Assembly (NCBI GenBank): GCA_964495685.1
Contig: CAZBVQ010000001.1
Coordinates: 297,521-361,520 of the forward strand
Reading direction: 5' to 3'
DNA: 64,000 bases
DNA from: an uncultured Candidatus Saccharibacteria bacterium
GTDB lineage: Bacteria; Patescibacteriota; Minisyncoccia; Phycocordibacterales; PALSA-1337
Below are positions 5,785 through 32,401 of the stretch, in pieces. Position 1 is the stretch's first letter. Each line of letters starts with the position of its first letter. The notes beneath the pieces are model-generated. The model did no database searches. It was not told the DNA's origin and saw only the letters and a list, made by a program, of their open reading frames with translations. The translations under genes were made by a program, and so were the position numbers.

Positions 5785-5803
5785 TTCCAGGCCGGGCCTG
5801 GAA
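5785..5803. repeat. palindrome TTCCAGGCCGGGCCTGGAA (variant of the 17-bp palindrome family)
   Basis: Perfect 19-bp palindrome lying immediately 3' of the dnaE stop codon. Confidence 0.8.
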
Positions 5804-8800
5804 TTACAACGCCCTCAATCGCTCAAGTAGGAAACTTTTCTCACCGTTGCGTGTATTTACAGTCGCTTTTATGGCTACGCACTTGTCAGGAGCGATCAAT
5901 GAATGAAATTCTTTGTACACACGAGGGAATGCCACCGCCTCAGCTGAGCCAGAGAAGTCTTGGACAGTGACGAATGCCATAGTCTCATTTTTCTTTGTTT
6001 GAATCTCACGAACTTCAGTAATGATGCCAGCGAAAATGGTGGTCGCACCCTCCTTGATAGTCTCAAATGCTTTCTTGATATCCATTCCATTTTTTGTGAT
6101 GACCTCACGGTATCGTTCGAGTGGATGGCCGGAAATGTACAAGCCCAGCAACTCTTTTTCCCAGGCAAGCTTGTCACGCATTTCTGCAGGAGGTACATCT
6201 GCAAGTCGCAGTGTAGGTACGCTCGAGGTATCGGTCATGCCGCCGAACAAGGAATCCTGGTCTGCATGTTGTTTACTGTTTTCCTTGTTGTATTCGAGCA
6301 TAAGGTCAAGGTTGGCGAGCATGACGCCACGGTCGACACCGAAACAGTCCATGGCACCAGCTTTGATGAGAGATTCGAGAGATTTTTTGTTGAGATTCTT
6401 GTCTTTGACGCGGTCTAGGAAATTGGATAATGACGTGAATGTGCCAGCACGCTTTCGTTCCTCGATGATGGCTGTCGAGATGCCTTGACCGAAGTTCTTG
6501 ATGGTAACGAGACCGAAGCGGATGCGGTATCTGGGAACGTCAGGAGGATATGTCTCCTCAGCGAACGGCGTCGGCTTCTGCTGAAGCCGCGCCTCATTCT
6601 CCCTCGCCTCCGCTCGGTCCGAAGGTCGCTTCGAAGACACATCCTCCTGACGTTCCTTGATTACCGTAAACTGACTGAAGCTCTCATTTACATCAGGAGG
6701 AAGTACTGGAATCCCGATACGCTTACATTCAGCGATTGTCTCGGCCACTTTCTCCGTATCGCCTTGCTCCGAGGTGAGTACGGCTGATAGATAAATTTCA
6801 GGGAAATGCGCCTTGAGGTATGCGGTGATATACGCCACACGACCATAAGATACCGAGTGGGCCTTGTTGAAACCGTAGGCTGCGAATGGCTCGATCCATT
6901 TCCAGACTTCTTTTGCCTTCTTTTCTGACCATTTGCTGTGTGAGATACATCCCTTGATGAACTTATCTTTTTGCAGTGCCATTTCCTCAGGGATCTTTTT
7001 ACCCACCGCTTTGCGGAATTTGTCGACTTCGCCCCAACTATATCCCGCGATCAGGTGCGCCATCATCAGGAGGTCGTCTTGATAGACAAGAATACCGTAG
7101 GTTTTGTCGAGAATTTTCTCGAGCATAGGGTCGAGATATGAAATGAGTGAGCGATCGTGTTTGCGCGCAATATAGTCAGGAATGAAGCCGATCGGACCAG
7201 GACGGTACAATGCCACCATGGCGTTGATGTCGTGAATGGTGCTTGGTTTGAGGTCTTTGAGGAATCGAGTCATACCATCACCGTTGAGCTGGAATAGGTC
7301 AGCAGTTTCACCACGAGCGAGCATTTCGAATGTCTTCTTGTCGTCTACCGGTATAGTGTCATAATCGACGTCCACACCGTCAATTTTCTTGATACGCTCG
7401 ATAGTGTCGGCGATGATGGTCAAGTTTTTGAGACCAAGGAAGTCGAATTTGAGCAGCCCGGCTTCTTCGATCGAATACATATCGTACTGGGTGATGATTT
7501 TGCCTTCGCCCTTGGGATCAAACTGGAGCGGCGTATAGTCGGTCAATGACGAAGGTGAGATGACCACGCCCGCAGCATGCACACCGATGTGTCGTGCACA
7601 ACCTTCGATCTTGCGAGCCATGTCAATAATGCGTCGCGTGTCAGGTTCAGTGTCGTAGGCGCTCTTGAGTTCGGGAGTCTCTTGAAGTGCGCGCTCAATG
7701 GTCATAGGGAAGCCTTGAGAGCCCATGGGAATGAGTTTGGAAATACGGTCACCGACATCATAAGGGAAACCCATAGCACGAGCTACGTCACGGACTGAAC
7801 CGCGAGCAGCCATAGTACCGAACGTACCGATCTGCGCCACTTTGTCTGCACCGTATTTGCGTCGGACATAGTCGATGACTTCGTCGCGTCTATCGTCGGC
7901 ATAGTCCATATCGATATCGGGAGCTGAGGGACGATCAGGGTTGAGGAAGCGCTCGAAGGGGATTTCGTATTCGATGGGGTTGATATTGGTGATACCTGCC
8001 AAGAAGGTGACCAACGAACCAGAGACGGAGCCACGAATATTTGAGAGGATTTTATTCTCGCGAGCGAAGCGGAGCATGTCTGCCACGACCAGGAAGTAGG
8101 GAGCATATCCTTTGTCTCGAATGACTTTCAGCTCATATTCAGCACGTTTGACGAGGTCGTCAGTTTTGGGGACATTGCGTCGAGCAAATCCCTCGAAGAC
8201 GATATGGTGAAGCTCATCGTCGGCGCTTCGACCGCTCTCTACCTTCAAGGCTGGAAATACCCATTTGCCCAGCTCGAGTTTCAAGTTGCATGCGTCGACA
8301 ATTTTCTGAGTATTTTCGAGTGCTTCAGGCATGTCATGGAAGAGTTCCTCGGCACGCTCGGCGGAAATAAATGAAAAATCATCTTCGTCACTATCTGATA
8401 TTTTGTCAGAGGAATCACTGTGTGAGTTGACGCGTACGAGTGTCTCACGAGCGAAACGATCGTCCGGGTTGAGGTAGTAGACGTCATGTGCAGCCATGAC
8501 AGGAATCTCTTGTTTCTTGGCGAATTGCACCAGTGTCTTCATGGTAGATTCGTGACCATCGATCTCGGGGTGGCGCGTGATTTCAAGGTAGAGACGGTCT
8601 GTTTCTAGGCCGGGCCTAGAAAATACTTTCTTGTAGAATGTCGCGATCTCAGTGGCTTTCTCTTGATTCCTGCCGCCAAGTGCGTGGACTATTTCGCCGG
8701 AGAATGACGGCATGATGCAGATGAGACCCTCATTATATTTCTCAATGAGTTCACGGTCGATGCGTGGCTTGTAGTAGAAGCCTTCGAGGTGAGAGATGGT

Positions 8801-9118
8801 AACGAGTTGGACGAGGTTGCGGTAGCCGGTTTCATTCATAGCCAGAAGGACGAGACGACTGCGTCGATTGTCGATACCGGGCTGCATGTCTTTCCTGGAA
8901 CGTGCGGCTACATAGAAATCGACGCCAATGATTGGTTTGAGCTCTTTTTTCTGGCAGGCCTTGTAGAATTCGATGGCGCCGTAAAGGTTGCCGTTGTCGG
9001 TGAGGGCCAAGGCATTCATGCCATGTTTCTTGGCAGCCGCGACTAGATCGTCGATCTTGGGCAGGGCAGAAAGGAGGGAATAGTGGGAGTGGGTGTGGAG
9101 GTGGGCGAACAGGCTCAT
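5804..9118 (-). CDS. dnaE: DNA polymerase III alpha subunit
   Basis: 1104 aa; N-terminal PHP domain (HLHTHSHYSLL), polymerase core and OB-fold regions typical of DnaE. Confidence 0.95.
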   Translation of the reverse strand: MSLFAHLHTHSHYSLLSALPKIDDLVAAAKKHGMNALALTDNGNLYGAIEFYKACQKKELKPIIGVDFYVAARSRKDMQPGIDNRRSRLVLLAMNETGYRNLVQLVTISHLEGFYYKPRIDRELIEKYNEGLICIMPSFSGEIVHALGGRNQEKATEIATFYKKVFSRPGLETDRLYLEITRHPEIDGHESTMKTLVQFAKKQEIPVMAAHDVYYLNPDDRFARETLVRVNSHSDSSDKISDSDEDDFSFISAERAEELFHDMPEALENTQKIVDACNLKLELGKWVFPALKVESGRSADDELHHIVFEGFARRNVPKTDDLVKRAEYELKVIRDKGYAPYFLVVADMLRFARENKILSNIRGSVSGSLVTFLAGITNINPIEYEIPFERFLNPDRPSAPDIDMDYADDRRDEVIDYVRRKYGADKVAQIGTFGTMAARGSVRDVARAMGFPYDVGDRISKLIPMGSQGFPMTIERALQETPELKSAYDTEPDTRRIIDMARKIEGCARHIGVHAAGVVISPSSLTDYTPLQFDPKGEGKIITQYDMYSIEEAGLLKFDFLGLKNLTIIADTIERIKKIDGVDVDYDTIPVDDKKTFEMLARGETADLFQLNGDGMTRFLKDLKPSTIHDINAMVALYRPGPIGFIPDYIARKHDRSLISYLDPMLEKILDKTYGILVYQDDLLMMAHLIAGYSWGEVDKFRKAVGKKIPEEMALQKDKFIKGCISHSKWSEKKAKEVWKWIEPFAAYGFNKAHSVSYGRVAYITAYLKAHFPEIYLSAVLTSEQGDTEKVAETIAECKRIGIPVLPPDVNESFSQFTVIKERQEDVSSKRPSDRAEARENEARLQQKPTPFAEETYPPDVPRYRIRFGLVTIKNFGQGISTAIIEERKRAGTFTSLSNFLDRVKDKNLNKKSLESLIKAGAMDCFGVDRGVMLANLDLMLEYNKENSKQHADQDSLFGGMTDTSSVPTLRLADVPPAEMRDKLAWEKELLGLYISGHPLERYREVITKNGMDIKKAFETIKEGATTIFAGIITEVREIQTKKNETMAFVTVQDFSGSAEAVAFPRVYKEFHSLIAPDKCVAIKATVNTRNGEKSFLLERLRAL
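8604..8620. repeat. 17-bp palindrome TCTAGGCCGGGCCTAGA embedded in the dnaE coding sequence
   Basis: Exact copy of the palindrome found at 17493 and 32385; in frame it encodes SRPGLE of DnaE. Confidence 0.8.
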
Positions 9119-9215
9119 GGATTGATTATACGGGAAAAAGATAGATAATTGAACGGGATTGACACTTTCGCTACCTAGTTATAGTGTTAGGGAAACCAAC
9201 CGGAGATTTTGTTCT

Positions 9216-9644
9216 ATGTCTGAATCAAATATGCAAGCACGTACGAACTTCTTGAACGCGCTCTACTTCTTTGTCACTGACCACAAGAATGACGAAAAAA
9301 GAATTAGGGCCATTGAGTGTGCGGAGAAACTGGGCGGTCAAACATTACGCAAGCAAGTTGAGGACATCATGCCACTCCTCGTGCAAGGGCACCAATTCGC
9401 TTGGATTTCACTACTTGCGTGGATTGGTAACCAAAGACACTTCTTTGACCCTTTCAAGGGGCAATCACCTTTTGCCAATAAAATTATTGCCGTCATTCGT
9501 GAAGGGATGATTTGCGAGGATGTGTTACCCCTAGCGCATGTTGAAAAATTGTGGGACGAAGTTGAGCCGGCAGGCTTCTTGAGGTTGATACTGGTCTATC
9601 CGCCAGGCAGCAAGCCTAGCCTGTTCGCTTTGCAAGGTTCTTGA
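9216..9644 (+). CDS. hypothetical protein
   Basis: Start at ATG 9216 preceded by GGAG at about 10 nt; 142 aa; no recognisable domain; followed by a terminator. Confidence 0.4.
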   Translation: MSESNMQARTNFLNALYFFVTDHKNDEKRIRAIECAEKLGGQTLRKQVEDIMPLLVQGHQFAWISLLAWIGNQRHFFDPFKGQSPFANKIIAVIREGMICEDVLPLAHVEKLWDEVEPAGFLRLILVYPPGSKPSLFALQGS

Positions 9645-9662
9645 TCCGTAGATCGTAAACCA

Positions 9663-9690
9663 CCCGGTGTCTCAGCGCCGGGTTTTTTTA
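9663..9690 (+). terminator. rho-independent terminator
   Basis: CCCGGTG-TCTCAG-CGCCGGG hairpin followed by TTTTTTT. Confidence 0.75.
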
Positions 9691-9766
9691 TTGTTGAGCT
9701 ATTCGCAAGCAGTCTTTTTATTTAAACTCGCAAGCTTTATTTGCCTGTTCTGCTATCATAGGACCA

Positions 9767-10357
9767 ATGAAACTCACCACATTCCTCATAGGCATCGACG
9801 AAGTCGGTCGTGGCCCTATTGCGGGCCCTGTTGCTGTGGGTGCTTTCGCATTTCTTACCCCTGGAGCAAAGAAACTATTTCGGGGCGTAAAAGAATCCAA
9901 ACAATTGACCGAACAGAAAAGGGAGGAATGGTTTGCACGAATTGAACAGGCGAAAAAAAGTGGTCACGTGGATTTTTGCGTCACATTTCAAAGTGAAAAA
10001 GTTATCGACTCCAAAGGTCTGTCTTATGCTATCAAGACGGCACTCCTTACTTCTTTGTATGCACTAAAAATAAAGCCTGCCTCTGCACGTGTACTTCTCG
10101 ATGGTGGACTCCGGGCACCAGCGAATTATCAGAATCAAAAAACAATCATCAAAGGTGACGAGAAGGAAATGGTGATCGCACTAGCTTCTATTTGTGCCAA
10201 AGTGTTACGAGATAGGAAGATGAATATGCTCGCGAAAAAATATCCGAAATATGGATTCGAGAAACATAAAGGATATGGGACGAAAGGGCATTACGGGGCG
10301 ATAAGGAGGTGTGGACTTCTCAGTACTCATCGTCGCTCATTTTTGCGCGCTTTCTAA
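9767..10357 (+). CDS. rnhB: ribonuclease HII
   Basis: GIDEVGRGPIAGPV active-site motif at the N-terminus; 196 aa. Confidence 0.9.
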   Translation: MKLTTFLIGIDEVGRGPIAGPVAVGAFAFLTPGAKKLFRGVKESKQLTEQKREEWFARIEQAKKSGHVDFCVTFQSEKVIDSKGLSYAIKTALLTSLYALKIKPASARVLLDGGLRAPANYQNQKTIIKGDEKEMVIALASICAKVLRDRKMNMLAKKYPKYGFEKHKGYGTKGHYGAIRRCGLLSTHRRSFLRAF

Positions 10358-10560
10358 CTAATCAGCCCTTGTTTTCGGAGAAGCTCTAGAGCATCCACAG
10401 CTTTGTCCTCCTCTACGTATACACTGGCGGATATATTGGATCGACCACGGGCACTGATGTTCGGAGAATACGAGGCTGGAATGTTGTTGTTCTCCAGAAA
10501 ACCTTTTATGATTGCTGCACTCATTTCATGTGGAGTTGTTGCTATTTGTATTTTACTCAT
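10354..10560 (-). CDS. DUF2007-like small protein (putative signal-transducing fold)
   Basis: Trimmed to internal Met to avoid overlap with tRNA-Leu; MSKIQIATTPHEMSAAIIKGFLENNNIPAS... matches the DUF2007 pattern; 68 aa. Confidence 0.5.
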   Translation of the reverse strand: MSKIQIATTPHEMSAAIIKGFLENNNIPASYSPNISARGRSNISASVYVEEDKAVDALELLRKQGLIS

Positions 10561-10583
10561 ACGGTTACTGCATTTAATTTCTG

Positions 10584-10667
10584 TGCCCGGGGTGGGAATC
10601 GAACCCACAAGACCTTGCGGTCGACAAATTTTAAGTCTGTTGCGTCTACCAATTTCGCCACCCGGGC
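10584..10667 (-). tRNA. tRNA-Leu (anticodon TAA)
   Basis: 84 nt class II tRNA: acceptor GCCCGGG, D-arm GTGGCGAAATTGGTAGACGC, anticodon loop CTTAAAA, long variable arm, T-loop GGTTCGATTCC. Confidence 0.9.
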
Positions 10668-10677
10668 GGATGGATTG

Positions 10678-10749
10678 AGGCCACGGGGAGAATCGAACTC
10701 CCGTATAGCTCTTTTGCAGAGAGCCGAATTACCACTTTTCTACGTGGCC
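10678..10749 (-). tRNA. tRNA-Cys (anticodon GCA)
   Basis: 72 nt; acceptor GGCCACG/CGTGGCC, anticodon stem GCTCT/AGAGC with loop CTGCAAA, T-loop GTTCGATTC. Confidence 0.9.
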
Positions 10750-10760
10750 GTATGCCAATC

Positions 10761-11084
10761 CTACACGTTTTTTGATAACTCGTCTATGCGCTGACGATTC
10801 TTTTCGCCGACGTCTATGGCTACTTCAAAGAAGGGGACGTGACCGATTCGTGATTTTTCCATGACATACTGGCGGAATGCGGTCAGTTGTCTGTGTGCGA
10901 AATCCATAACTGCCGGCTCCTGTGTTTCGGGCATGACAGTCATCAGAATGCGGGCCCTTGAGCCCTTGTTGAAAACCTCAACATCAGTGACAGTAATCAA
11001 GGATTGACGATTTGACTCGCGTGAAAAATACTCAGCGGCTAGCTCTCGGAGGATTTCTTTGAGTTTGTTGTCTTTTTGGTTCAT
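10761..11084 (-). CDS. rbfA: ribosome-binding factor A
   Basis: 107 aa; RbfA pattern (RELAAEYFSRE...LITVTDVEV...); position downstream of infB as in the conserved infB-rbfA arrangement. Confidence 0.85.
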   Translation of the reverse strand: MNQKDNKLKEILRELAAEYFSRESNRQSLITVTDVEVFNKGSRARILMTVMPETQEPAVMDFAHRQLTAFRQYVMEKSRIGHVPFFEVAIDVGEKNRQRIDELSKNV

Positions 11085-11115
11085 TTGAATTTGGGATTTG
11101 TCTAGGATTTAGAGT

Positions 11116-12777: not shown

Positions 12778-12806
12778 GGTTAGGTGCTATAATCAGCCCG
12801 CATCAT

Positions 12807-13508
12807 ATGAAATTCTATACCATCGCGCCGCTTATTCTTCAGAAATGCATTTGGATTCCCTGCAGGATTGTGTTCACTCTTTTCGGTCATCTCGAAGTGC
12901 GTGGTCTTGAGAATCTGAAAGGGATAAAAAGCAATGTTATTTTTGCCACAAATCACGCGAGCGAGCTTGATCCGTTTCTAGTGCCCACATCATTGCCTTT
13001 TTTTTCACGATTTTCACCCCTGTTTTATATCACCCGAGAAAAATCATTTTATGATGGCAATGGGTGGCGTCAGCACCTGTTCGGCGGTCTCTTCATAAAT
13101 GCGTGGGGTGGCTATAGTGCTCGCACAGGTCTCCATGATTATCATCGTTCCTTGGTCGAGCATGAACAAATACTGCGTGACGGTGAAAGTTTTTGTGTCT
13201 TCCCTGAAGGTCGTCGTACGCCTGATGGCACATTACAGCCAGGTAAAGGGGGTATTACATTTTTGGCAGAACAGGGGAGGGTGCCGATCATTCCTGTGGG
13301 TTTTTCGGGGACGTATCATTCTCCGGCAAAAGATTTTTTTAGAGGACGAAAACATATTACAGTGACGTTCGGGGTTCCTATATACCAAGAAGAGTTGAAA
13401 CGGCTAGTCCCTCGGGCCACAGTTCCAGGCACCAATGTTTACAAAGAGGAGTCTGCTTATGTGATGAAAAAAATTGCTGAGATATTGGATGTTCAGTCCT
13501 CGGCTTAG
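12807..13508 (+). CDS. plsC: 1-acyl-sn-glycerol-3-phosphate acyltransferase family protein
   Basis: Acyltransferase motifs NHASELD and FPEGRRTPDG; start moved to internal ATG 12807 (TATAAT just upstream). Confidence 0.8.
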   Translation: MKFYTIAPLILQKCIWIPCRIVFTLFGHLEVRGLENLKGIKSNVIFATNHASELDPFLVPTSLPFFSRFSPLFYITREKSFYDGNGWRQHLFGGLFINAWGGYSARTGLHDYHRSLVEHEQILRDGESFCVFPEGRRTPDGTLQPGKGGITFLAEQGRVPIIPVGFSGTYHSPAKDFFRGRKHITVTFGVPIYQEELKRLVPRATVPGTNVYKEESAYVMKKIAEILDVQSSA

Positions 13509-14490: not shown

Positions 14491-14883
14491 ATGATGCACT
14501 TCGGAGAACATTTAATGATTGATGGTTACGAAGCATCTTGCGGGTCTCTCGATAATCGGACGCTTGTTTTTGAGGTGCTCGATAAGTTGCCGGAAGAAAT
14601 GGGAATGAAGAAACTCTCTCCGCCCCAGGTTTTTTGGGCACCAGCAATAAGTAAAAAAGATTCTGGTGGATGGAGTGGTTTTGTGGTGATTCAAGAAAGC
14701 CACATAAGTATTCACACGTTTCCTCGACGTGGTTTCATTAGTGCAGACATATATACTTGTCAGAATAATATGGATACAGAAAAGGTTCAGAAATATCTCC
14801 GGAAAGCGTTCAGTATTAAGGATATGGAAATTAATTTCGTCAAACGGGGGACGAAATATCCAGAAAAAGACCTATATTCATAG
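14491..14883 (+). CDS. speH: S-adenosylmethionine decarboxylase proenzyme (class 1B, pyruvoyl-dependent)
   Basis: ESHISIHTFP self-cleavage/pyruvoyl serine motif and ADIYTC motif; 130 aa. Confidence 0.85.
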   Translation: MMHFGEHLMIDGYEASCGSLDNRTLVFEVLDKLPEEMGMKKLSPPQVFWAPAISKKDSGGWSGFVVIQESHISIHTFPRRGFISADIYTCQNNMDTEKVQKYLRKAFSIKDMEINFVKRGTKYPEKDLYS

Positions 14884-15863: not shown

Positions 15864-17486
15864 ATGTTGTTCAGTAATATTTTTTCAGTTACAACTCTGA
15901 CGCTAAGTTTTTTGTTAGGGTTTTACGTGTACTTAAATGATAGTAAAAATAGAATTAATCAATCATTCATTTTTCTAACTTTTGGAGCAATGATGTGGAT
16001 ATTTGCTAATCTGATGACGGATATTTCTAATGACCTTGCGTTTGTGGATCTGTGGAGCAAGGTTACCATGATAGGCCCTATATTCTTTTCGTACTTCTTC
16101 TATAGACTTTCACTATATTTTCCGAAAGAAAAGATACAAATAAAAAAGAAGCAGCATGAACTCGTTCTTACAATTTTGACGGCGATATTTCTTGTCCTTA
16201 TTCCAACTCGTCTCAATATAAGGAATGTCTATATTGGAGGGAATGGTTTTCCTGAAATTGTAGCCGGGCCTTTGTATATATTTGCCCTGGCTTTTTTTCT
16301 GTATCTAATCATCACGGCACTCAGAAATATTTTTTCTGGCTACAAAAACTTTGACTCGCTCCAACGTCGTCAGGTTCAATATATATCGTTCGGATTGGGA
16401 TTTTTCGTCTTTTTGGGTTCAATGACGAATGCAGTTTTACCCGTCCTAGGAAATTCTCAATTAGTTAATTTTGGACCATATTCTATAATTATATTTATTA
16501 TTTTTACTTCCTACGCGATCATAAGGTTCAAGATGTTTGATATCAAAGTCGTTGTCACGCAATTACTAGTCTATACTTTGTGGATATTTGTTCTAATAAG
16601 AGTTTTGTTGAGTGAAACGGCTCAGGACGGATATACGAATGGGGTCCTTCTCGTCCTCTTAGTCATCACCGGCATCTTCCTTATCCGATCAGTCCTTAAG
16701 GAAGTGGAAACTCGCGAAAAAATCGAACTTCTCGCCACTGACCTCCAGAAAGCCAATGACCGACTCACTGAGCTCGATCGTCAGAAGTCGGAGTTCGTGT
16801 CGTTCGCTACTCATCAGCTCCGTGCACCACTGACCGCTATGAAGGGCTACGCCTCTCTCATTCTCGAAGGGGATATGGGTCAAGTCGCTCCTCAAGCCAA
16901 GGATGCCGTCGGCAGAATATTCGAATCCACCAACACACTGACCAATATCGTTGATGATTACTTGAATGTCACACGCATCGAATTGGGCACCATGAAATAC
17001 GCTTTCGAGACCATGGATTTGAAGACACTTATCGAAGATGTTATCGCCGAACTCAAACCGAATATCGACAAGGCGACAGGTGTCAAATTCATATTTGGTG
17101 CTGAAGATATACATGGAGATTATCGTATCACTGCTGATCGCGACAAACTCAAGCAGGTGATCGCTAATCTCATCGATAACTCAATCAAATATACTCCGAA
17201 GGGATCTGTCGGTGTTTCACTGTCGTTCAATCGCAGCAAGCACAAGTTCATCTTCATGCTCAAGGATACAGGCATCGGTATTGCGCCAGAAACATTGCCG
17301 CATCTGTTCAACAAGTTTACTCGTGCAGGCAACGCAAACAAGACCAATATCAAAGGTACCGGTCTTGGCCTATTCGTGGCAAAAGAAATTATTACGGCAC
17401 ACCATGGTGTTATTCGTGCCGAATCAGAAGGGGAAGGGAAGGGTTCGACATTTATTGTGGAGTTGGAGCCATTTGCGAAAGTATAG
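15864..17486 (+). CDS. sensor histidine kinase (multi-TM sensor, HisKA, HATPase_c)
   Basis: About 7 TM helices, H-box SEFVSFATHQLRAPLTAMKGY, N/G boxes (LIDNSIKYT, DTGIGI, GTGLGLFVAKEI); start at ATG 15864 directly after the upstream stop; no adjacent response regulator. Confidence 0.9.
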   Translation: MLFSNIFSVTTLTLSFLLGFYVYLNDSKNRINQSFIFLTFGAMMWIFANLMTDISNDLAFVDLWSKVTMIGPIFFSYFFYRLSLYFPKEKIQIKKKQHELVLTILTAIFLVLIPTRLNIRNVYIGGNGFPEIVAGPLYIFALAFFLYLIITALRNIFSGYKNFDSLQRRQVQYISFGLGFFVFLGSMTNAVLPVLGNSQLVNFGPYSIIIFIIFTSYAIIRFKMFDIKVVVTQLLVYTLWIFVLIRVLLSETAQDGYTNGVLLVLLVITGIFLIRSVLKEVETREKIELLATDLQKANDRLTELDRQKSEFVSFATHQLRAPLTAMKGYASLILEGDMGQVAPQAKDAVGRIFESTNTLTNIVDDYLNVTRIELGTMKYAFETMDLKTLIEDVIAELKPNIDKATGVKFIFGAEDIHGDYRITADRDKLKQVIANLIDNSIKYTPKGSVGVSLSFNRSKHKFIFMLKDTGIGIAPETLPHLFNKFTRAGNANKTNIKGTGLGLFVAKEIITAHHGVIRAESEGEGKGSTFIVELEPFAKV

Positions 17487-17492
17487 CTACAT

Positions 17493-17509
17493 TCTAGGCC
17501 GGGCCTAGA
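17493..17509. repeat. 17-bp palindrome TCTAGGCCGGGCCTAGA
   Basis: Perfect palindrome 7 nt after the histidine kinase stop codon. Confidence 0.8.
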
Positions 17510-17510
17510 A

Positions 17511-17555
17511 TAAAAAGCGGAGTGGTCACCTCGAGGGTGTCCACTCCATTGCTTT
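17511..17555. terminator. bidirectional terminator
   Basis: GGAGTGG-TCACCTCGAGGGTGT-CCACTCC hairpin; minus-strand reading is followed by GCTTTTTATT, plus-strand reading by ATTGCTTT. Confidence 0.65.
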
Positions 17556-17568
17556 GGTGATCTGGATG

Positions 17569-17841
17569 CTAGAGATCACTATCGGGAAGGCCGCCTGCCC
17601 ATGCGGGACGATCTCTCCAAGTCTTCTTCCGCGGCTGAGATCTCGGTATCTCAGACACAGGCGGAAGCTTCTTGAAGTTCAGCCTCATCTGGAACCCAAC
17701 GTGGTTGCCAGGAGTACCTACGGGAATACTGACTCGTTGCCCCGTGGTAACTTCGGTGGGCTGTACATCCGAAGAGGGCTCCTTACCGTTGAGAGATGCG
17801 TATATTCTAGCGAATGACGCAAGTCCTTTTTCGAGAGTCAT
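17569..17841 (-). CDS. unknown small protein (90 aa) with complete expression signals
   Basis: ATG preceded by GGAGG at 5-nt spacing; upstream TTGACT-N17-TGaTATAAT promoter (17899-17927); bidirectional terminator immediately after stop; product MTLEKGLASFARIYASLNGKEP... matches no family I recognise. Confidence 0.5.
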   Translation of the reverse strand: MTLEKGLASFARIYASLNGKEPSSDVQPTEVTTGQRVSIPVGTPGNHVGFQMRLNFKKLPPVSEIPRSQPRKKTWRDRPAWAGGLPDSDL

Positions 17842-17898
17842 TTGTTCCTCCGGCTGTAATGTGCCATGTCCACCTCGGACTACGCACGTTCGAATATC

Positions 17899-17927
17899 AT
17901 TATATCACCTAAAATAGAGAAAGTCAA
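17899..17927 (-). promoter_or_regulatory. sigma70-type promoter (TTGACT-N17-TATAAT with TG extension)
   Basis: Minus-strand reading TTGACTttctctattttaggTGaTATAAT about 55 nt upstream of the ATG at 17841. Confidence 0.6.
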
Positions 17928-17952
17928 TGCGTCGCAGTCAAACATACAAAAA

Positions 17953-17982
17953 ATGGCCCAAATGCGACCCATTTTGGGTGCC
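17953..17982 (-). terminator. rho-independent terminator of the GatB/YqeY gene
   Basis: CCCAAA-N-TTTGGG hairpin followed on the minus strand by CCATTTTTT. Confidence 0.6.
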
Positions 17983-18012
17983 TGTGGATAACTTTTTATG
18001 GGGGCAGGGGAG

Positions 18013-24271: not shown

Positions 24272-24280
24272 TTTCTATAT

Positions 24281-24337: not shown

Positions 24338-24811
24338 TCACCCTCTCGACTCTGGACGAGTAATATTGAGAAATTGGCCCAGGAAGACGGTATTCTTGCT
24401 GCCCTCCATGATACGGGCGGCATCTTTTGGTCGGAGCAAGCGCGGTCTGGAATGTAGTGCAAGCGCGATCACGCATGCCTCACTGAGGTGGTGCGATAAT
24501 GATCCGTAAAATGACAGGATTAACCTATGTGTCCGGATTGTGCCTAGATGACTTCCGCCCAAGCTGAGGTCTTGAGGAGGACGATCTTGCATAATCTGGG
24601 CACGATTTTGTGCGTGCCAGGCAAACAGGCCCGCATCTTTGTCTCGCATCATACCGATAGGCAAGACGAATTCGAGTCTCGATTTTCGCCAATCTTGGAC
24701 GCAGAGGAATCCGCCCGCTAGGCCACTATGTTGATGTCTGGGAGTGGCATGCGCACGTGCGACGATTGATTCCATGAGGGCAACCACAGTCTCTCGCTGC
24801 TTGTGTTCCAT
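24338..24811 (-). CDS. unknown 157-aa ORF inside a GC-rich promoter-to-terminator unit (alternative reading: structured ncRNA)
   Basis: Single long ORF spanning almost the whole predicted transcript (promoter 24853-24881, terminator 24281-24306) but with no SD and no recognisable domain; see findings. Confidence 0.3.
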   Translation of the reverse strand: MEHKQRETVVALMESIVARAHATPRHQHSGLAGGFLCVQDWRKSRLEFVLPIGMMRDKDAGLFAWHAQNRAQIMQDRPPQDLSLGGSHLGTIRTHRLILSFYGSLSHHLSEACVIALALHSRPRLLRPKDAARIMEGSKNTVFLGQFLNITRPESRG

Positions 24812-24881: not shown

Positions 24882-24902
24882 GTCGCATCGCGTCACCTTT
24901 TT

Positions 24903-24911: not shown

Positions 24912-25015
24912 ATGGAGTAATTCAACAAGGGAACCATTGAACAATTGCTCAGATTAATTCTCGGGTAGCTGTACCGAATTGTTTAATAGTTCCTTTGTTC
25001 AATTGTTGAATTCTT

Positions 25016-27490: not shown

Positions 27491-27491
27491 T

Positions 27492-28184
27492 GTGTCAATG
27501 AAAGAAGAAAATCCTTTTGAAGACAAAACGGTGGCGCAAGAATGGATTGATTCTATCGAGAATCAAGGCTCACGGACTCGGGAGATGGAGATTTACCCGA
27601 TGCTGAATTCTTGGGTGAAAGAATTCAAACCAGAAACAATTATTGAGGTTGGCTCGGGTCAGGGTATTTGTTCCGCTGCTTTCGATACTGGGGAATTAGA
27701 ATATGTTGGGATTGAGCCGTCAGAGTATTTATTGCATCGTGCACAAGAGAAATACGCAAATGCACAGAGGACATTTGTACAAGGAGATGCATACTCACTA
27801 CCTTTGGATGCTGAGTCGGCTGATGCAGCGTTTTCTGTTGGCGTCTGGTTTCATATAGATGATCTAGATAGAGCGCATGCTGAGTTGGCTCGGGTGCTAC
27901 GTAAGGATGGTCGGTTGTTGATATTTACTGCAGACATAGGTGCGCGAGACGTCTGGGAATCGTGGTTTGATAAGCCAAAGGTTGACGGCAAACGTGTCCA
28001 AGGAGCCGTCTTTGTTCCTGGTGGAAGGTTGTCAAAAAATATTTTTTATTTTCATTCAACAAAAGAAATCGCTGAATCGTTGGAGAAACACGGATTTATT
28101 ATTGAGGATATCAAAACAATAGGATTTGGAGGTGGAGAGCGAACTAGGGGAATTTGGGTTGCAATACGAGCCAAGAAAAAGTGA
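27492..28184 (+). CDS. class I SAM-dependent methyltransferase
   Basis: Motif I IIEVGSGQGICS; 230 aa. Confidence 0.75.
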   Translation: MSMKEENPFEDKTVAQEWIDSIENQGSRTREMEIYPMLNSWVKEFKPETIIEVGSGQGICSAAFDTGELEYVGIEPSEYLLHRAQEKYANAQRTFVQGDAYSLPLDAESADAAFSVGVWFHIDDLDRAHAELARVLRKDGRLLIFTADIGARDVWESWFDKPKVDGKRVQGAVFVPGGRLSKNIFYFHSTKEIAESLEKHGFIIEDIKTIGFGGGERTRGIWVAIRAKKK

Positions 28185-28197
28185 GCAAAATAACTGA

Positions 28198-28344
28198 GTA
28201 TCGTTCATCGAAATTGGACATCTTGATGTGAATGATTTTGAAGACGGACTCCATCCCAATGCATCAGGGCATCAGAAGATTTTCGAGCAGGTCGATAGAT
28301 TTATGAACGACAATAAGTGGAGGCGGCTTCGGGTACATAAATGA
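28198..28344 (+). pseudogene. C-terminal remnant of an SGNH/GDSL hydrolase
   Basis: Open frame with no start codon encodes ...GHLDVNDFEDGLHPNASGHQKIFEQV..., the block V DGxHP catalytic-His motif of SGNH hydrolases; the N-terminal catalytic blocks are absent. Confidence 0.5.
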
Positions 28345-28410
28345 GAAAGACCTTCGTGAGAATGGCCCGAAGGTCAGTCTCACGAAGGTCATTTCGAGGG
28401 TTTTTCAACA

Positions 28411-28671
28411 TCATTTCTTCGCCGCCGCGGGTTTCGGTGTCTTTGGTGCTTTGACCCGATATACAACCAGTACGCCTTCCAGCCAACCGTTGCTGGTCGA
28501 TTTTGTGCTAACGGTGACTATTCGGGCGGTTGGATTTTGTTTTTCCCACGCAGTGATAAGCTGGGCGGCGTCATCACAATTGCTAGCCCTGAGATAGACG
28601 GCCCCCGCATGAGCGGGCACGGCTGCAATGATGAGAAATAATGTCGTTACGAATACAAGGAGCTTTTTCAT
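28411..28671 (-). CDS. small secreted hypothetical protein
   Basis: Internal Met start gives signal peptide MKKLLVFVTTLFLIIAAVPAHA; 86 aa; Lys/Pro/Ala-rich C-terminal tail. Confidence 0.45.
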   Translation of the reverse strand: MKKLLVFVTTLFLIIAAVPAHAGAVYLRASNCDDAAQLITAWEKQNPTARIVTVSTKSTSNGWLEGVLVVYRVKAPKTPKPAAAKK

Positions 28672-29055
28672 TTTTCGAGAGGTCTTTCTGTCCCCGGGGG
28701 GTTGATTTGTAGAGGCGGGGCACCTCAAAAACTACATGTAATATGATGGCATGTTTTATTATAAAAGTCAAGACATCGTAACTGAATAACAAAGACCCTT
28801 GCAATTTTACATAACGCTAATTATAATTAGCATGCCAATCTCGTGTATTTTCTCGTAAACATATAAGGACTTGTACGGTTATAAGAACTAAGCATAAAAA
28901 GATGGTTTCAAGCAAAACACTCAATGCGCATCTAAAAACAGTTAGGGGTATTGTCGTTAAGAATTTCGCAATAATAGATCTAAAATTAGAAGAAATGAAT
29001 CAGTGCATGAAACGTATCGAGGTAAATCAGAAAAAGAGTGTACCGGGCGACTCCA

Positions 29056-30015
29056 TTACATACACGGAAACATAATCGTGAATGTCGAACCGACACCTTC
29101 CTGACTTTCGACGGTGATCGTGCCTTGGAGATCTTCTTCGACAATCATCCTGACCGTCGAGAGACCTATTCCTGTACCTTTCGCTTTGGTCGTAAATGAT
29201 TCTTTGAACAATCTGCCCTGAGTCGATTCGGACATACCTATACCTGTATCGTGTATTGAAATACGTATACGGCCATCTTCTTTGTGGGCACGTACGGTGA
29301 CATTCTTGGCCTCATCTGAAGTGTCGGTACCGCCTCGTTCGATACATGCATCGATACCATTGGTGACTAGGTTGAGTAGAAGTTGGTGTAAACGGACAGG
29401 ATGGATATTCACGGTGAGTGATGAAGGATTGTCCAATACGATGCGCACCTGTGCCATGCGCGCCTTGTAGCCGAGTACGTCTCTTACAATTTCCGCTTCG
29501 TGCCAGAAATCACTTGTTTCGACCGGTTGTGCGCGGTTGGTCTCGAGACAGCGACGTACGCTGTCCATATATGAACCGAGACGGCGTGAAGTCTCGAGCA
29601 TCTTGGTGATCATGCCACGGCTCGTCTCAGATAGGGAGTCACGGTGAGCCATATTCTCGGCATAGGTCGTGAGTGCCGCCAACGGATTCATGAGATCATG
29701 GAATAATCCTTGAGATAGTGTGCCGAAACGGGCGGTGCGGTCTAGTTCAATAAATCGTTGCTCTTCCGATCTGACGAGGGCACGAGTGCGCTCGGCGATG
29801 CGTCGTTCGAAGCGGAGTCGTTCGGCGTGCATCGCTTCGTCTGACAACTCTTCGAGTCGTCGCGAGGTCTTGATCTGGGTATATGACAGTATCGCCACAA
29901 TGATTACGAACAGTGTCACAAATGAGTACATCACTACATCCACTGCCGAGACGGAGAGTGTCGCGGCGGTGGACGAGCCCTCAGCATACGCCTGCATGTA
30001 CGAGAGGGAATTCAT
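29056..30015 (-). CDS. sensor histidine kinase (short membrane-anchored, HisKA, HATPase_c)
   Basis: H-box FHDLMNPLAAL, N-box NLVTNGIDA, G-boxes HDTGIGM and GTGIGLSTV; one or two N-terminal TM helices. Confidence 0.9.
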   Translation of the reverse strand: MNSLSYMQAYAEGSSTAATLSVSAVDVVMYSFVTLFVIIVAILSYTQIKTSRRLEELSDEAMHAERLRFERRIAERTRALVRSEEQRFIELDRTARFGTLSQGLFHDLMNPLAALTTYAENMAHRDSLSETSRGMITKMLETSRRLGSYMDSVRRCLETNRAQPVETSDFWHEAEIVRDVLGYKARMAQVRIVLDNPSSLTVNIHPVRLHQLLLNLVTNGIDACIERGGTDTSDEAKNVTVRAHKEDGRIRISIHDTGIGMSESTQGRLFKESFTTKAKGTGIGLSTVRMIVEEDLQGTITVESQEGVGSTFTIMFPCM

Positions 30016-30163
30016 ATTAATGAATGATGCGGGAAGACGAATCGTGCACAGTAGTCATCATGCGATTAGTGGTAAGCGTTGCGTCGACACGTAACTCTAG
30101 GTACCGTATCAGGTCGAAATGAAGAAATAATGAAGAATTGCTGAAGATTTGCTGAAGATCTGT

Positions 30164-30847
30164 TCATGTGTTCTTGTTGCGAGAAAATATCATGTATCCT
30201 CGCCCGGGGCTATTCTCGATGAGATCGGGAGCTCCTGCAGCAGCCAATTTCTTGCGAAGGTTGCGGATGTGCGTTTCGACGGTGTTGGAAAGGGAGTCGC
30301 TGTCAGCACTCCAGACATATTCGAGTATCATGGCGCGTGAGACAATGGTGTCACGGTGACGGGCAAGATATTCGAGTACGCCGAATTCTTTGCGTGTCAG
30401 ATGGATCTCTGTGCCATTGTAGGAGACTGTTCCTGCATTCAAGTCGAGTGTTATGCCACATAGATTGATCGTCTCAGTATGATCAATAGCTGGTCGTCGA
30501 TGGAGCGCCCGGAGGCGGGCCTGCAATTCAGCTGAGGCGATCGGCTTGACGACATAATCATCGGCGCCCGCATCGAAGGCTGCGACTTTGGTCGTTAGGT
30601 CATCAATAACGGTGCAAAATATGATAGGAGTCACTTTGCCTGAGGCGCGAATCTCTCTACAGATAGTGAGCCCATCTTTTTTCGGAAGAGAATAATCGAG
30701 GACGATGGCGTCATAATCATAGCTCTTGCCTAGGAATGAACCTTCGCCTCCTTCAGTGGCAACGTCGACAATGTGACCAGCGGCTACCAAGCCGTTCGTC
30801 GTCATCTCGGCAAGCAACGGGTCGTCTTCAACGAGGAGAATTTTCAT
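30164..30847 (-). CDS. OmpR-family response regulator (REC plus winged-helix)
   Basis: MKILLVEDDPLLAE...DAIVLDYSLPKKDG...KPI receiver domain; C-terminal trans_reg_C pattern (LTRKEFGVLEYLARH...RGYM). Confidence 0.9.
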   Translation of the reverse strand: MKILLVEDDPLLAEMTTNGLVAAGHIVDVATEGGEGSFLGKSYDYDAIVLDYSLPKKDGLTICREIRASGKVTPIIFCTVIDDLTTKVAAFDAGADDYVVKPIASAELQARLRALHRRPAIDHTETINLCGITLDLNAGTVSYNGTEIHLTRKEFGVLEYLARHRDTIVSRAMILEYVWSADSDSLSNTVETHIRNLRKKLAAAGAPDLIENSPGRGYMIFSRNKNT

Positions 30848-30997
30848 ACATGTGGCGAGTATATCAAACGTGTATAATAAATCGAGTCCACAGGCGGCTG
30901 TAGTATAGGTATAACCTGTTAATTGTTGTGTGGGGCGGAAGAGAGTACAATTGATGGTATATTCTTATCCTTACGATTACTCTACTATAAATACTAT

Positions 30998-32383
30998 ATG
31001 AAAAAATACATTATTGCTTCAAGTATCGCACTCGTGGCCATAGTCTCTGTGGCTAGCGCGCAAGAATACGCATTTTCGAAAAATCTCACTGTAGGTACTG
31101 TGGGTGATGACGTCGCCCAACTCCAATCGTGGTTGATCGGGAACGGCTTCGACATTGCGGCTGTCAGTTCGGGCAAAGTCGCCAAAGGATATTTCGGTGA
31201 ACAGACGCGTCAAGCCCTCAAGCGATTCCAAGAAAGTGAAGGGCTTCCTGGTACTGGTTATTTCGGTCCCTTGAGTCGAGCTCGTCTTCATGATCGTAAT
31301 CCGGTTCGTACTGATTCTCGTGCACCAATCATCAATAATGTTGATGCTCCGACGGTACTCTCGGTCAATGAGAGTGGTACATGGAGTATCAAAGCAACTG
31401 ATCCCCAGAATGGTACATTGAGATATTATGTCGAATGGGGAGATGCTCTGGAATATGCTGCCGTGAAATGTCCGGATGGATACGTCTGTAGCCCGGTCGG
31501 AGTCAATCCATCTGCTCCAGCAGTTCAGCAGTCTTCGACATTCACACATGCTTATACCGAACCTAGCACGTACAAGGTGAGATTCACGGTCAGTAATAGT
31601 CTCGGACTCTCGAGTCGATCGACTGCTACGGTCAAAGTCGTCGGATCTAGCGCTGGTGCACTCAAGGTGGTATCTCCGAATGGTGGTGAATATTGGCAGC
31701 GCGGTACAACTCAGACTATTCGTTGGAATTCGCCGACGTATTTCAGGGCGACGTATGCGGATATAAAGATACGTACTTATCAAGAACCGTGCCCGTCTGG
31801 ATTTTCGTGCATACCTCTACCAATACTTGAATATACAATTGCTCGTAATGTCGGCATCAACCAGAATTCATATTCATGGAATGTCGGCCAATACCAGCCA
31901 GATGTCGTCCCAGCGATATACCCGGCTCCTACATATTTAGTCCCAAATGATGGAAGGCGATACATCCTTAAAATCTGCGAGACCGGAACCATCAATTGTG
32001 CCTCGAGTGACAAACCGTTCACTATTACGGCCGGTCCAGACGTAACTGTCGTATCTCCTAACGGAGGTGAAACATGGGTAGCTGGCTCGGCACAGTATCT
32101 GCGCTGGACTCTCACCGCTTCGACTGACACCAATACACGACTCGATCTCTATCTTGACCAATCAAGTTATTGTAATACAGCGCCCTGTACTACGACGCCT
32201 AATTCCAGGATGTATGTCCTGGACAAGAATATTCCGATTACTATGGCGTACAACTGGGTTGTGGCTACCGACGTGGATAATGTAAAAATACCCGCAGGTA
32301 ACTACCGGTTTCGTGTGTGTGCAGCTGGATCTACGACAGTATGCGACTCAAGTGAGGCAGCTTTCACTATCTCCAACAATTAA
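30998..32383 (+). CDS. secreted peptidoglycan-binding domain protein with repeated Kre9/KNH-like (Ser/Thr-rich GPI-anchored-like) domains
   Basis: Signal peptide MKKYIIASSIALVAIVSVASA; PG_binding_1-like segment (VAQLQSWLIGNGFD...GYFGEQTRQALKRFQESEGL); repeated VVSPNGGExW..G..Q.IRW units. Confidence 0.65.
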   Translation: MKKYIIASSIALVAIVSVASAQEYAFSKNLTVGTVGDDVAQLQSWLIGNGFDIAAVSSGKVAKGYFGEQTRQALKRFQESEGLPGTGYFGPLSRARLHDRNPVRTDSRAPIINNVDAPTVLSVNESGTWSIKATDPQNGTLRYYVEWGDALEYAAVKCPDGYVCSPVGVNPSAPAVQQSSTFTHAYTEPSTYKVRFTVSNSLGLSSRSTATVKVVGSSAGALKVVSPNGGEYWQRGTTQTIRWNSPTYFRATYADIKIRTYQEPCPSGFSCIPLPILEYTIARNVGINQNSYSWNVGQYQPDVVPAIYPAPTYLVPNDGRRYILKICETGTINCASSDKPFTITAGPDVTVVSPNGGETWVAGSAQYLRWTLTASTDTNTRLDLYLDQSSYCNTAPCTTTPNSRMYVLDKNIPITMAYNWVVATDVDNVKIPAGNYRFRVCAAGSTTVCDSSEAAFTISNN

Positions 32384-32384
32384 T

Positions 32385-32401
32385 TCTAGGCCCGGCCTAG
32401 A
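32385..32401. repeat. 17-bp palindrome TCTAGGCCCGGCCTAGA
   Basis: Perfect palindrome 1 nt after the stop codon of the preceding gene; same family as 8604 and 17493. Confidence 0.8.

What the first reader, a model, noticed from the sequence alone, without database searches (positions are those of the whole stretch)
5785..32401. Perfect 17-bp palindrome TCTAGGCCSGGCCTAGA in three copies, plus a CCAGG variant, mostly abutting stop codons
Exact copies lie at 8604-8620 (inside the dnaE coding sequence, encoding SRPGLE), 17493-17509 (7 nt after the histidine-kinase stop) and 32385-32401 (1 nt after the stop of the PG-binding protein gene). A variant TTCCAGGCCGGGCCTGGAA sits at 5785-5803, directly after the dnaE stop. 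Three exact 17-mers in 64 kb cannot be chance. Each could form a 7-bp GC-rich stem with a 3-nt loop, but none is followed by a U-tract, so they are not classical terminators. Possible roles: REP-like mRNA 3'-end stabilisers, a binding site for a dimeric protein (regulator, nucleoid protein or restriction-modification/uptake recognition sequence), or the footprint of a minimal mobile palindrome that inserts next to stop codons.
Basis: seen in the sequence. Interest (0 to 1): 0.6.

Follow-up and report, generated by a model that had tools for sequence, protein, structure and literature searches.

The report
REP-like mobile palindrome in a Patescibacterium
The repeated 19-base palindrome is real and is most likely a small mobile "REP"-type hairpin repeat, private to one ultra-small (Patescibacteria) bacterium, that sits just after stop codons and once in-frame inside the DNA polymerase gene; it is a known kind of element in an unreported host and in an unusually minimal form.

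Summary
The true unit is a perfect 19-21 bp palindrome, TTCYAGGCC-S-GGCCTRGAA. There are three identical copies (8603, 17492, 32384) and one variant with a symmetric change in both arms (5785). I add a degenerate fifth copy (58530). Four of the five lie 0-8 nt after a stop codon (P about 6e-8). One adds SRPGLE to a hypervariable DnaE loop.

The host is a Taylorbacteria-like Patescibacterium. The motif is multi-copy only in this genome; scans of GTDB species genomes, JGI metagenomes and viral contigs gave isolated single hits or none. The copies are absent from all four orthologous sites in the nearest relatives, although the flanks are conserved.

The key evidence comes from two other Paceibacteria. 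One is a near relative (GyrA 88%). Each carries its own family of palindromes with the same architecture. In both, these flank a Y1/HUH transposase gene whose best solved-structure match is the E. coli REP-associated transposase. That is the classical REP-RAYT arrangement.

Best reading (about 0.65): these are REP-type non-autonomous palindromes moved in trans by a RAYT-like enzyme encoded elsewhere in the genome. No such gene lies in the 81 kb I could reach. The elements lack the GTAG/CGTC tag and the doublet organisation of classical REPs. I rate this a new variant of a known kind, of moderate interest.

The parts
5785..5803 (.). Variant copy TTCCAGGCCGGGCCTGGAA. CTAGG is changed to CCAGG in both arms, so the stem is kept. 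It directly abuts the TAA stop of dnaE (5804-5806, minus strand), between convergent genes.
   Evidence: It is absent at the orthologous site in L012 and L013 while the flanks are about 90% conserved.
8603..8621 (.). Canonical copy inside dnaE, a 21-bp palindrome at 8602-8622. It is in frame and encodes SRPGLE in a hypervariable loop of the PHP domain, after FYKKVF.
   Evidence: The closest DnaE homologs have only 'GE' or 'GD' here. The loop varies from 2 to 83 aa among 120 homologs, and none has SRPGLE.
17492..17510 (.). Canonical copy, a 21-bp palindrome at 17491-17511. It lies 5 nt after the TAG stop of the histidine-kinase gene (15990-17486, plus strand) and upstream of a conserved terminator-like hairpin (17519-17547).
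   Evidence: The relative L051 has an unrelated 25-nt spacer at this place, with conserved flanks.
32384..32402 (.). Canonical copy with central C on the plus strand. It is wedged between the TAA stop of the PG-binding/PKD protein gene (30923-32383, plus strand) and the -35 box (TTGACA, 32407-32412) of the tuf promoter.
   Evidence: L051 lacks the palindrome here but keeps CCTAGAA. L052 has an unrelated terminator.
58530..58548 (.). Degenerate copy TTCTAGGCGAGACCTAGAC with 6-bp arms and a 5-nt loop. It lies 8 nt after the TAG stop of the PrsW-protease gene (58557-59246, minus strand).
   Evidence: About 0.06 matches with 3 or fewer mismatches are expected per window.

Best explanation
The palindromes are copies of a very short, REP-type (repetitive extragenic palindrome) non-autonomous mobile element specific to this Taylorbacteria-like Patescibacterium.

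Proposed mechanism: on single-stranded DNA each copy folds into an 8-bp stem with a 3-nt loop. A RAYT-like Y1/HUH tyrosine transposase, encoded once elsewhere in the genome, recognises the hairpin. It cuts and re-joins copies at new sites during replication.

Copies survive, or are targeted, where they do no harm. Those places are the first few nucleotides after a stop codon, ahead of the real terminator or next promoter, and a surface loop of DnaE that tolerates insertions. Once transcribed, the hairpins may secondarily affect mRNA 3' ends.

Shown: the repeat family itself, its restriction to this genome, its absence from relatives' orthologous sites, its stop-codon bias, and the REP-RAYT arrangement in two other Paceibacteria.

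Inferred: that this genome's copies are moved by such an enzyme, and any RNA-level role.
For: 1. Non-random, identical dispersed copies. This is the only palindrome family in 81 kb.

2. Private to this genome. The 19-mer gave 9 single hits in unrelated phyla among 185,579 GTDB species genomes. It gave 31 single hits, all in contigs showing no DNA similarity to the window and most of them high-GC, in JGI metagenomes, and 0 in viral contigs.

3. Absent from all four orthologous sites in relatives, with conserved flanks.

4. Four of five copies lie 0-8 nt 3' of a stop codon, between convergent or unidirectional genes. P is 6e-8 overall and 5e-5 given an intergenic position. This is the distribution described for REPs, which also occur inside replication and repair genes, including a dnaE (PMC3733652).

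5. Relative L052 (GyrA 88%) has five copies in 22 kb of its own 19-bp palindrome with the same 9-1-9 architecture, TCCAAGGTCNGACCTTGGA; 6 of 9 arm positions match ours. Two copies bracket a Y1_Tnp gene, and two others sit 0 and 7 nt after stop codons.

6. A second Paceibacterium (L053/L054) has a homologous gene flanked by GCGTCAAGATGACATCTTGACGC palindromes. Both RAYT-like loci that I fetched show this arrangement.

7. That protein family passes the Pfam Y1_Tnp cutoff (41 bits against 23). Its HUH histidines and a tyrosine in the Y-x-H-L-N-P motif, taken here to be the catalytic one, are invariant. Its only relevant NCBIfam hit is REP_Tyr_transpos. Its AlphaFold model (pLDDT 87.5) best matches 4ER8, the E. 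coli REP-associated transposase bound to a REP hairpin.

8. The symmetric double change in the variant copy preserves the stem.
Against: - No Y1 transposase gene, intact or decayed, is present in the 80.9 kb of this contig that I could read. None of the 120 best homologs of the L052 enzyme sits on a contig of this genome's size.
- The copies have no unpaired GTAG or CGTC tag and are singletons, not REPIN/BIME doublets.
- At about 1 per 16-20 kb they are sparse.
- At two sites the relative's spacer has about the same length and shares the right-hand end, so the copies there are not clean +19 insertions.
- Nothing here shows transposition or transcription directly.
Confidence: 0.65

Rival explanations
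1. The palindromes are binding sites for a dimeric DNA-binding protein, such as a chromosome-organising or segregation protein of the parS, Noc-NBS or KorB-operator type, or a global regulator. Such a protein would recognise a 9-1-9 dyad.
For: The sites have perfect dyad symmetry with a single central base. The four intact copies fall within 27 kb of an 81-kb stretch. Some known sites of this type are also odd-length palindromes that can lie inside genes (my own knowledge).
Against: - The sites are missing at all four orthologous positions in relatives although the flanks are conserved.
- No ParB-type or other candidate gene appeared in the Pfam annotations covering most of the 81 kb.
- A binding-site model does not predict 4 of 5 sites within 8 nt after stop codons.
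- It also does not predict perfect identity between copies.
- Relatives carry different palindromes bracketing transposase genes.
Confidence: 0.08
2. The palindromes are primarily selected RNA elements: stop-codon-proximal hairpins that protect mRNA 3' ends or modulate termination or translation. Their spread would occur by some means other than a dedicated transposase, for example recombination or templated conversion of pre-existing sequence.
For: - The hairpins are stable in RNA, at about -11 to -14 kcal/mol including flanks.
- Position right after stop codons is strongly favoured.
- The relative L051 already has CCTAGAA at the PG site and a spacer of similar length, which hints at replacement rather than insertion.
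- REPs close to stop codons are reported to affect mRNA stability and translation in E. coli (my own knowledge).
Against: - The in-frame copy inside dnaE cannot be a 3'-end element.
- There is no U-tract, and at the kinase gene a separate conserved terminator follows.
- Identical 19-mers at unrelated loci need a copying mechanism.
- Relatives link such palindromes to Y1 transposases.
- This reading is not exclusive of the main one.
Confidence: 0.15
3. The palindrome is a recognition sequence tied to restriction-modification or DNA uptake, either a DUS/USS-like inverted pair or an enzyme target.
For: The sequence contains nested restriction-type palindromes (CTAG, GGCC, CCSGG). Patescibacteria are thought to depend on DNA uptake (my own knowledge).
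Against: - The half-sites are not enriched on their own: GGCCTAG occurs only inside the palindromes, and CTAGGCC has only 3 extra occurrences.
- GGCC is not depleted (191 sites).
- No restriction enzyme or DNA methyltransferase was found in the parts of the 81 kb that were annotated. The only methyltransferase (27492-28184) is a small-molecule type, Methyltransf_11.
- The motif is absent from relatives.
Confidence: 0.03

Closest known systems
REP / REPIN elements with their RAYT (TnpA-REP) transposases of Proteobacteria (E. coli, Pseudomonas, Stenotrophomonas)
   Same: - Short, GC-rich hairpin-forming palindromes.
- Species-specific sequence.
- Dispersed copies, mostly less than 20 bp downstream of ORFs between convergent or unidirectional genes.
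- Occasional in-frame copies in replication and repair genes.
- In relatives, a Y1/HUH transposase gene bracketed by the cognate palindromes (PMC3733652, PMC2817692, PMC8266576).
   Different: - Only 19-21 bp, a perfect palindrome with a single central base.
- No unpaired GTAG or CGTC tag.
- Singletons, not doublets or BIMEs.
- Low density.
- The host is a reduced-genome Patescibacterium.
- The associated transposase clade scores below the NCBIfam RAYT cutoff (42 bits against 80).
- No RAYT has yet been seen in this genome.
Rickettsia palindromic elements (RPE) and CGTC-type REPs
   Same: They are palindromic repeats in a small genome that insert in frame into essential genes, including dnaE in R. 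conorii (PMC3733652).
   Different: RPEs are longer and carry tag or tail motifs. CGTC REPs have no known transposase. Here the insert is only 6 codons, and relatives do show an associated transposase.
IS200/IS605 insertion sequences
   Same: The enzyme has the same fold, and the same kind of single-stranded hairpin substrate is inferred.
   Different: The copies here carry no gene. The L052 and L053 genes have no tnpB partner and are flanked by symmetric, identical palindromes that also occur alone elsewhere.
Palindromic protein-binding sites (parS, Noc NBS, KorB operator) and uptake sequences in inverted pairs (Neisseria DUS, Haemophilus USS)
   Same: They are short, perfect or near-perfect dyads repeated in one genome. 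Inverted DUS/USS pairs sit after genes.
   Different: Those sites are conserved across related species (parS) or hugely over-represented as single half-sites (DUS/USS). Neither holds here.

Membership tests
REP (repetitive extragenic palindrome) | Short palindromic unit able to form a stable hairpin | tested here: met
   The unit is a 19-21 bp perfect palindrome with an 8-bp stem and 3-nt loop. Free energy is -6 to -7.5 kcal/mol as DNA, and about -11 to -14 kcal/mol as RNA with flanks. At 19-21 bp it sits at the short end of the 20-40 bp range given in PMC3733652.
REP (repetitive extragenic palindrome) | Many dispersed copies in one genome; sequence specific to the species | tested here: inconclusive
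   There are 4 intact copies and 1 degenerate copy in 80.9 kb. The motif is not multi-copy anywhere else in the GTDB, JGI or viral scans. The genome-wide count could not be obtained; classical REP genomes hold more than 100 copies (PMC2817692).
REP (repetitive extragenic palindrome) | Mostly extragenic, close to 3' ends of ORFs, between convergent or unidirectional genes | tested here: met
   Four of five copies lie 0-8 nt after a stop codon; two are in convergent and two in unidirectional contexts. P = 6e-8 (compare).
REP (repetitive extragenic palindrome) | Conserved unpaired GTAG or CGTC tetranucleotide at one end of the hairpin | tested here: not met
   The flanks of the five copies share no tag. 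CTAG lies inside the stem.
REP (repetitive extragenic palindrome) | Organisation as inverted doublets (REPIN/BIME) | tested here: not met
   All copies are singletons at least 2.8 kb apart.
REP (repetitive extragenic palindrome) | Cognate RAYT gene flanked by the same palindromes in the same genome | not testable with these tools
   No Y1 transposase gene occurs in the 80.9 kb available. The rest of the 521-kb contig could not be fetched. In relatives L052 and L053 the analogous palindromes do flank such a gene.
RAYT / TnpA-REP (applied to the L052 and L053 proteins, not to a window gene) | Y1/HUH transposase fold with conserved HUH motif and catalytic tyrosine | tested here: met
   Pfam Y1_Tnp scores 41 bits against a cutoff of 23. 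H88, H90 and Y148 are invariant in 52 homologs. The model has pLDDT 87.5, and its best PDB match is 4ER8 (E 1.2e-4, 180 aligned columns), ahead of the ISDra2 and IS608 TnpA structures.
RAYT / TnpA-REP (applied to the L052 and L053 proteins) | Reaches the curated RAYT model cutoff | tested here: not met
   NCBIfam NF047646 REP_Tyr_transpos scores 42 bits against a cutoff of 80. It is a divergent clade, so I call it RAYT-like rather than a RAYT equivalog.
RAYT / TnpA-REP (applied to the L052 and L053 proteins) | Gene bracketed by palindromes that also occur dispersed in the genome | tested here: met
   In L052 copies lie at 8838 and 9401 (bracketing the gene), at 9975, and dispersed at 14588 and 19291. 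In L053 copies lie at 9875 and 10580, plus 9400.
Intrinsic (Rho-independent) terminator | GC-rich hairpin followed by a U-tract | tested here: not met
   No T-run follows any copy on the sense strand, apart from GTTTT after the dnaE copy. Canonical terminators with T-tracts exist elsewhere in the window, for example 1678-1714.
parS / ParB-type or regulator binding site | Sites conserved at orthologous positions in related species, with a cognate binding-protein gene | tested here: not met
   The sites are absent in L012, L013, L051 and L052 at orthologous places. No ParB or candidate gene was seen in the Pfam annotations covering most of the 81 kb.
DNA uptake sequence (DUS/USS) | Strong genome-wide excess of the single half-site | tested here: not met
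   GGCCTAG occurs 3 times, all inside the palindromes. CTAGGCC occurs 6 times, 3 of them inside.

The most novel reading that the evidence does not exclude
Patescibacteria (CPR) harbour their own, so far undescribed REP-RAYT-type system. It would consist of minimal, untagged, perfect 19-23 bp palindromes with one central base, each family private to a lineage. A divergent Y1 transposase clade with thousands of members in these phyla would mobilise them. In these ultra-compact genomes the elements would colonise the few free nucleotides after stop codons and permissive loops of essential proteins such as DnaE.
Probability: 0.5. Interest if true: 0.55.

Novelty: new variant of a known kind. Interest (0 to 1): 0.42.

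Why it matters
REP/RAYT systems are regarded mainly as a feature of Proteobacteria with roomy genomes. Finding a stripped-down version in a roughly 0.5-1 Mb episymbiont-type genome has three consequences.

1. It would show that such intragenomic replicators persist even under extreme genome reduction.
2. It would give a simple marker for strain and lineage typing of uncultured Patescibacteria.
3. It would offer a minimal hairpin-plus-Y1-enzyme pair for studying substrate recognition without a guide tetranucleotide.

It also warns annotators that some short lineage-specific inserts in essential CPR proteins, such as the DnaE loop, may be repeat-derived.

Tried and rejected
- **Rest of the source contig.** Exact-protein look-ups only reach 10 kb either side of window genes, which gave 80.9 kb and no new copy. 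Two look-ups failed because the mechanical ORF starts were wrong.
- **Motif scans.** GTDB genomes, JGI metagenomes and viral contigs gave only isolated single hits or none.
- **This genome's RAYT.** I searched homologs of the L052 enzyme. None of the top 120 sits on a 700,686 bp or 521,699 bp contig. The best candidate, P0258 (516-kb contig), proved to be another organism, but it gave a second REP-RAYT-like locus.
- **Syntenic ORF upstream of gyrA** (24338-24811). It is not a Y1 transposase.
- **RAYT remnants.** tblastn and an HMM search of the 81 kb were negative; the one weak hit is ribosomal protein S8.
- **Rfam.** Scans of the window and of the two large convergent intergenic gaps found only tRNAs and sub-threshold noise.
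- **oriC/DnaA-box idea.** TTWTNCACA is not enriched (6 found against 4.5 expected).
- **Canonical parS.** Only two matches, each with 2 mismatches.
- **Restriction-modification idea.** No enzyme genes were found, and GGCC is not depleted.
- **att-site or island-boundary idea.** The segment between copies holds core genes such as infB, rbfA and rnhB.
- **Literature.** No paper in the library links REP/RAYT with Patescibacteria.
Full report
**1. Observation**

The 17-mer TCTAGGCCSGGCCTAGA occurs exactly at 8604, 17493 and 32385, with none in 100 dinucleotide-preserving shuffles. Allowing mismatches adds TCCAGGCCGGGCCTGGA at 5786 and TCTAGGCGAGACCTAGA at 58531.

Reading the flanks shows that the real unit is a perfect 19-bp palindrome, TTCYAGGCC-S-GGCCTRGAA. 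It extends to 21 bp at two sites. Every GGCCSGGCC in the window belongs to it. CTAG is otherwise about 3-fold rarer than composition predicts.

The variant at 5785-5803 differs by the same change in both arms (CTAGG to CCAGG), so the stem is preserved. The central G or C only reflects orientation.

Each copy folds into an 8-bp stem with a 3-nt loop.

**2. Host and context**

The exact DnaE protein occurs on a 521,699-bp ENA metagenome contig and on Logan contigs that are 99.97-100% identical to the window. Homologs are named Candidatus Taylorbacteria, Paceibacteria or Patescibacteria.

Gene calls place the copies as follows (sequence):
- 5785-5803 directly abuts the dnaE TAA stop.
- 17492 starts 5 nt after the histidine-kinase TAG and lies ahead of a separate terminator-like hairpin.
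- 32384 directly abuts the TAA of a PG-binding/PKD protein gene and lies 4 nt before the -35 box of the tuf promoter.
- 58530 ends 8 nt from the TAG of a PrsW-protease gene.
- 8603 is in frame inside dnaE and encodes SRPGLE.

With 76 genes and 90% coding density, only 1.06% of positions lie 0-8 nt after a stop codon. Four of five copies there gives P = 6e-8, or 5e-5 if only intergenic positions are considered.

Joining neighbouring look-ups gave 80.9 kb of the contig. It contains no further copy and no other palindrome family.

**3. Distribution elsewhere**

| Collection | Result |
|---|---|
| 185,579 GTDB species genomes | 9 single hits in unrelated phyla, in the range expected by chance |
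| JGI metagenomes | 31 single hits, all in contigs with no DNA similarity to the window, most of them high-GC |
| Viral contigs | 0 hits |

The family is therefore private to this organism, as far as the collections show.

**4. Orthologous sites in relatives**

- *After the dnaE stop.* L012 (DnaE 86%) and L013 (85%) lack the palindrome, while the next 55 nt are about 90% conserved. Our sequence is 13 nt longer than L012.
- *Inside DnaE.* The copy lies in a loop after FYKKVF. This loop is 2 aa ('GE' or 'GD') in the closest homologs and varies from 2 to 83 aa among 120 homologs. None has SRPGLE.
- *At the kinase and PG-binding stops.* The closest relative with a long contig, L051 (GyrA 91%), has non-palindromic spacers with well-conserved flanks.

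One caveat applies. The two L051 spacers are about as long as ours, and one ends in CCTAGAA. So either L051 keeps half-decayed copies, or our copies replaced similar sequence. I could not decide between these (note 5).

**5. The decisive lead**

A more distant relative, L052 (GyrA 88%, GCA_036170235.1), has its own 19-bp palindrome of identical 9-1-9 architecture, TCCAAGGTCNGACCTTGGA. Six of nine arm positions match ours. It occurs five times in 22 kb.
- Two copies bracket a gene with a Pfam Y1_Tnp domain. One lies 4 nt upstream of its likely ATG (MPYYHIYNRG...). The other lies in its 3' tail, where it also abuts the stop of the converging gene.
- A third copy lies 8 nt before the gyrA start.
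- A fourth lies 7 nt after the rplD stop, where our genome has no insert.

A homolog of that gene in an unrelated Paceibacterium (L053/L054) is likewise flanked by perfect palindromes, GCGTCAAGATGACATCTTGACGC, with degenerate inner copies. These are the only two such genes among all fetched loci, and both show the arrangement.

**6. The enzyme family**

- The family has more than 4,000 members at E of 1e-5 or better. Those that carry an organism name are from Patescibacteria, and several are labelled 'REP element-mobilizing transposase RayT' by JGI.
- It passes the Pfam Y1_Tnp cutoff.
- Its only relevant NCBIfam hit is REP_Tyr_transpos, but at 42 bits it is below the 80-bit cutoff.
- The HUH histidines and a tyrosine in a Y-x-H-L-N-P motif are invariant.
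- The AlphaFold model (pLDDT 87.5) best matches 4ER8, the E. coli REP-associated transposase bound to a REP hairpin. That match covers more columns than the matches to the ISDra2 and IS608 transposases.

**7. Comparison with the literature**

- Nunvar et al. (PMC2817692) define RAYTs as always flanked by their REPs. They report that the two co-evolve and that REPs are species-specific.
- Di Nocera et al. (PMC3733652) report that REPs lie mostly less than 20 bp after ORFs between convergent or unidirectional genes. They also report REPs inside replication and repair genes, including dnaE of R. conorii, and that most REPs carry an unpaired GTAG or CGTC tag.
- Corneloup et al. (PMC8266576) describe a second REP group with perfect palindromes.

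Our element matches the distribution, the species specificity and the intragenic behaviour. It does not have the tag or the doublet organisation, and it is shorter than usual.

I found no paper linking REP/RAYT to Patescibacteria.

**8. Interpretation**

The most likely reading (about 0.65) is a REP-type, non-autonomous hairpin element mobilised in trans by a RAYT-like Y1 transposase encoded outside the 81 kb I could see. Copies are retained where they are harmless.

A secondary effect on mRNA 3' ends is possible but untested.

Rivals fit the data worse:
- A dimeric-protein binding site does not explain the loss at orthologous sites or the stop-codon bias.
- A purely RNA-level element does not explain the dnaE copy.
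- Restriction-modification or uptake signals have no supporting genes and no half-site excess.

**9. Verdict**

The finding is real, non-random and explained in kind. It is a new, minimal variant of a known class in an unreported host. The transposase link is shown only in relatives. Interest is moderate.

Noticed in passing
window 8540-8680 (dnaE), proteins P0001-P0120: The DnaE PHP-domain loop after FYKKVF is hypervariable among Paceibacteria, from 2 to 83 aa. The inserts of P0009 and P0039 contain 'RSDL', which is the translation of AGGTCNGACCTT, the core of the L052-type palindrome. This suggests independent repeat insertions in the same loop.
   Followed up: partly
window 5437-5784: A 367-bp gap lies between the convergent genes 4618-5436 (+) and dnaE (-). 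The 55 nt next to the palindrome (5730-5784) are about 90% conserved in L012 and hold DnaA-box-like words (TTTTCCACA, TTATCTACA). There is no Rfam match and DnaA boxes are not enriched in the window overall.
   Followed up: partly
window 17487-18012: A 526-bp gap lies between the convergent histidine-kinase and yqeY genes. The hairpin at 17519-17547 plus ATTGCTTTGG is conserved in L051. No Rfam family matches, so the gap may hold an unannotated RNA.
   Followed up: partly
window 43132-43150: A single-copy perfect palindrome, TTTCCGCCCAGGGCGGAAA, with the same 9-1-9 architecture lies upstream of rpsH. It shares CCGCCCAG with the hairpin at 41934-41957.
   Followed up: partly
window 40724-42952: The ribosomal-protein operon is interrupted between rplE and rpsH by two minus-strand genes: a 368-aa protein of unknown function and a dihydroorotate dehydrogenase.
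   Followed up: no
window 32418-32426: A perfect DnaA-box word, TTATCCACA, lies in the spacer of the tuf promoter (TTGACA-17 nt-TAGACT). It reads TTATCCCCA in L051.
   Followed up: no
L052 8797-9453 and 9454-10000: The RAYT-like gene of this relative sits between the Lactamase_B_3/112-aa gene pair and gyrA. In the window (24338-24811) and in L051 this place holds an unrelated 156-157 aa ORF with no Pfam match.
   Followed up: partly
L053 16960-20597: A reverse transcriptase (RVT_1) plus a bAvd gene, a diversity-generating-retroelement-like pair, lies next to a 2264-aa Hint-domain protein. This is 6 kb from the RAYT-like gene.
   Followed up: no
L052 20815-21642: A histidine-kinase gene on the opposite strand is inserted between rplB and rpsS in the ribosomal-protein operon of this relative.
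   Followed up: no
L013 1-5370: A giant ORF (5267 aa, truncated by the locus end) lies near dnaE in this relative and is absent from the window's syntenic region.
   Followed up: no
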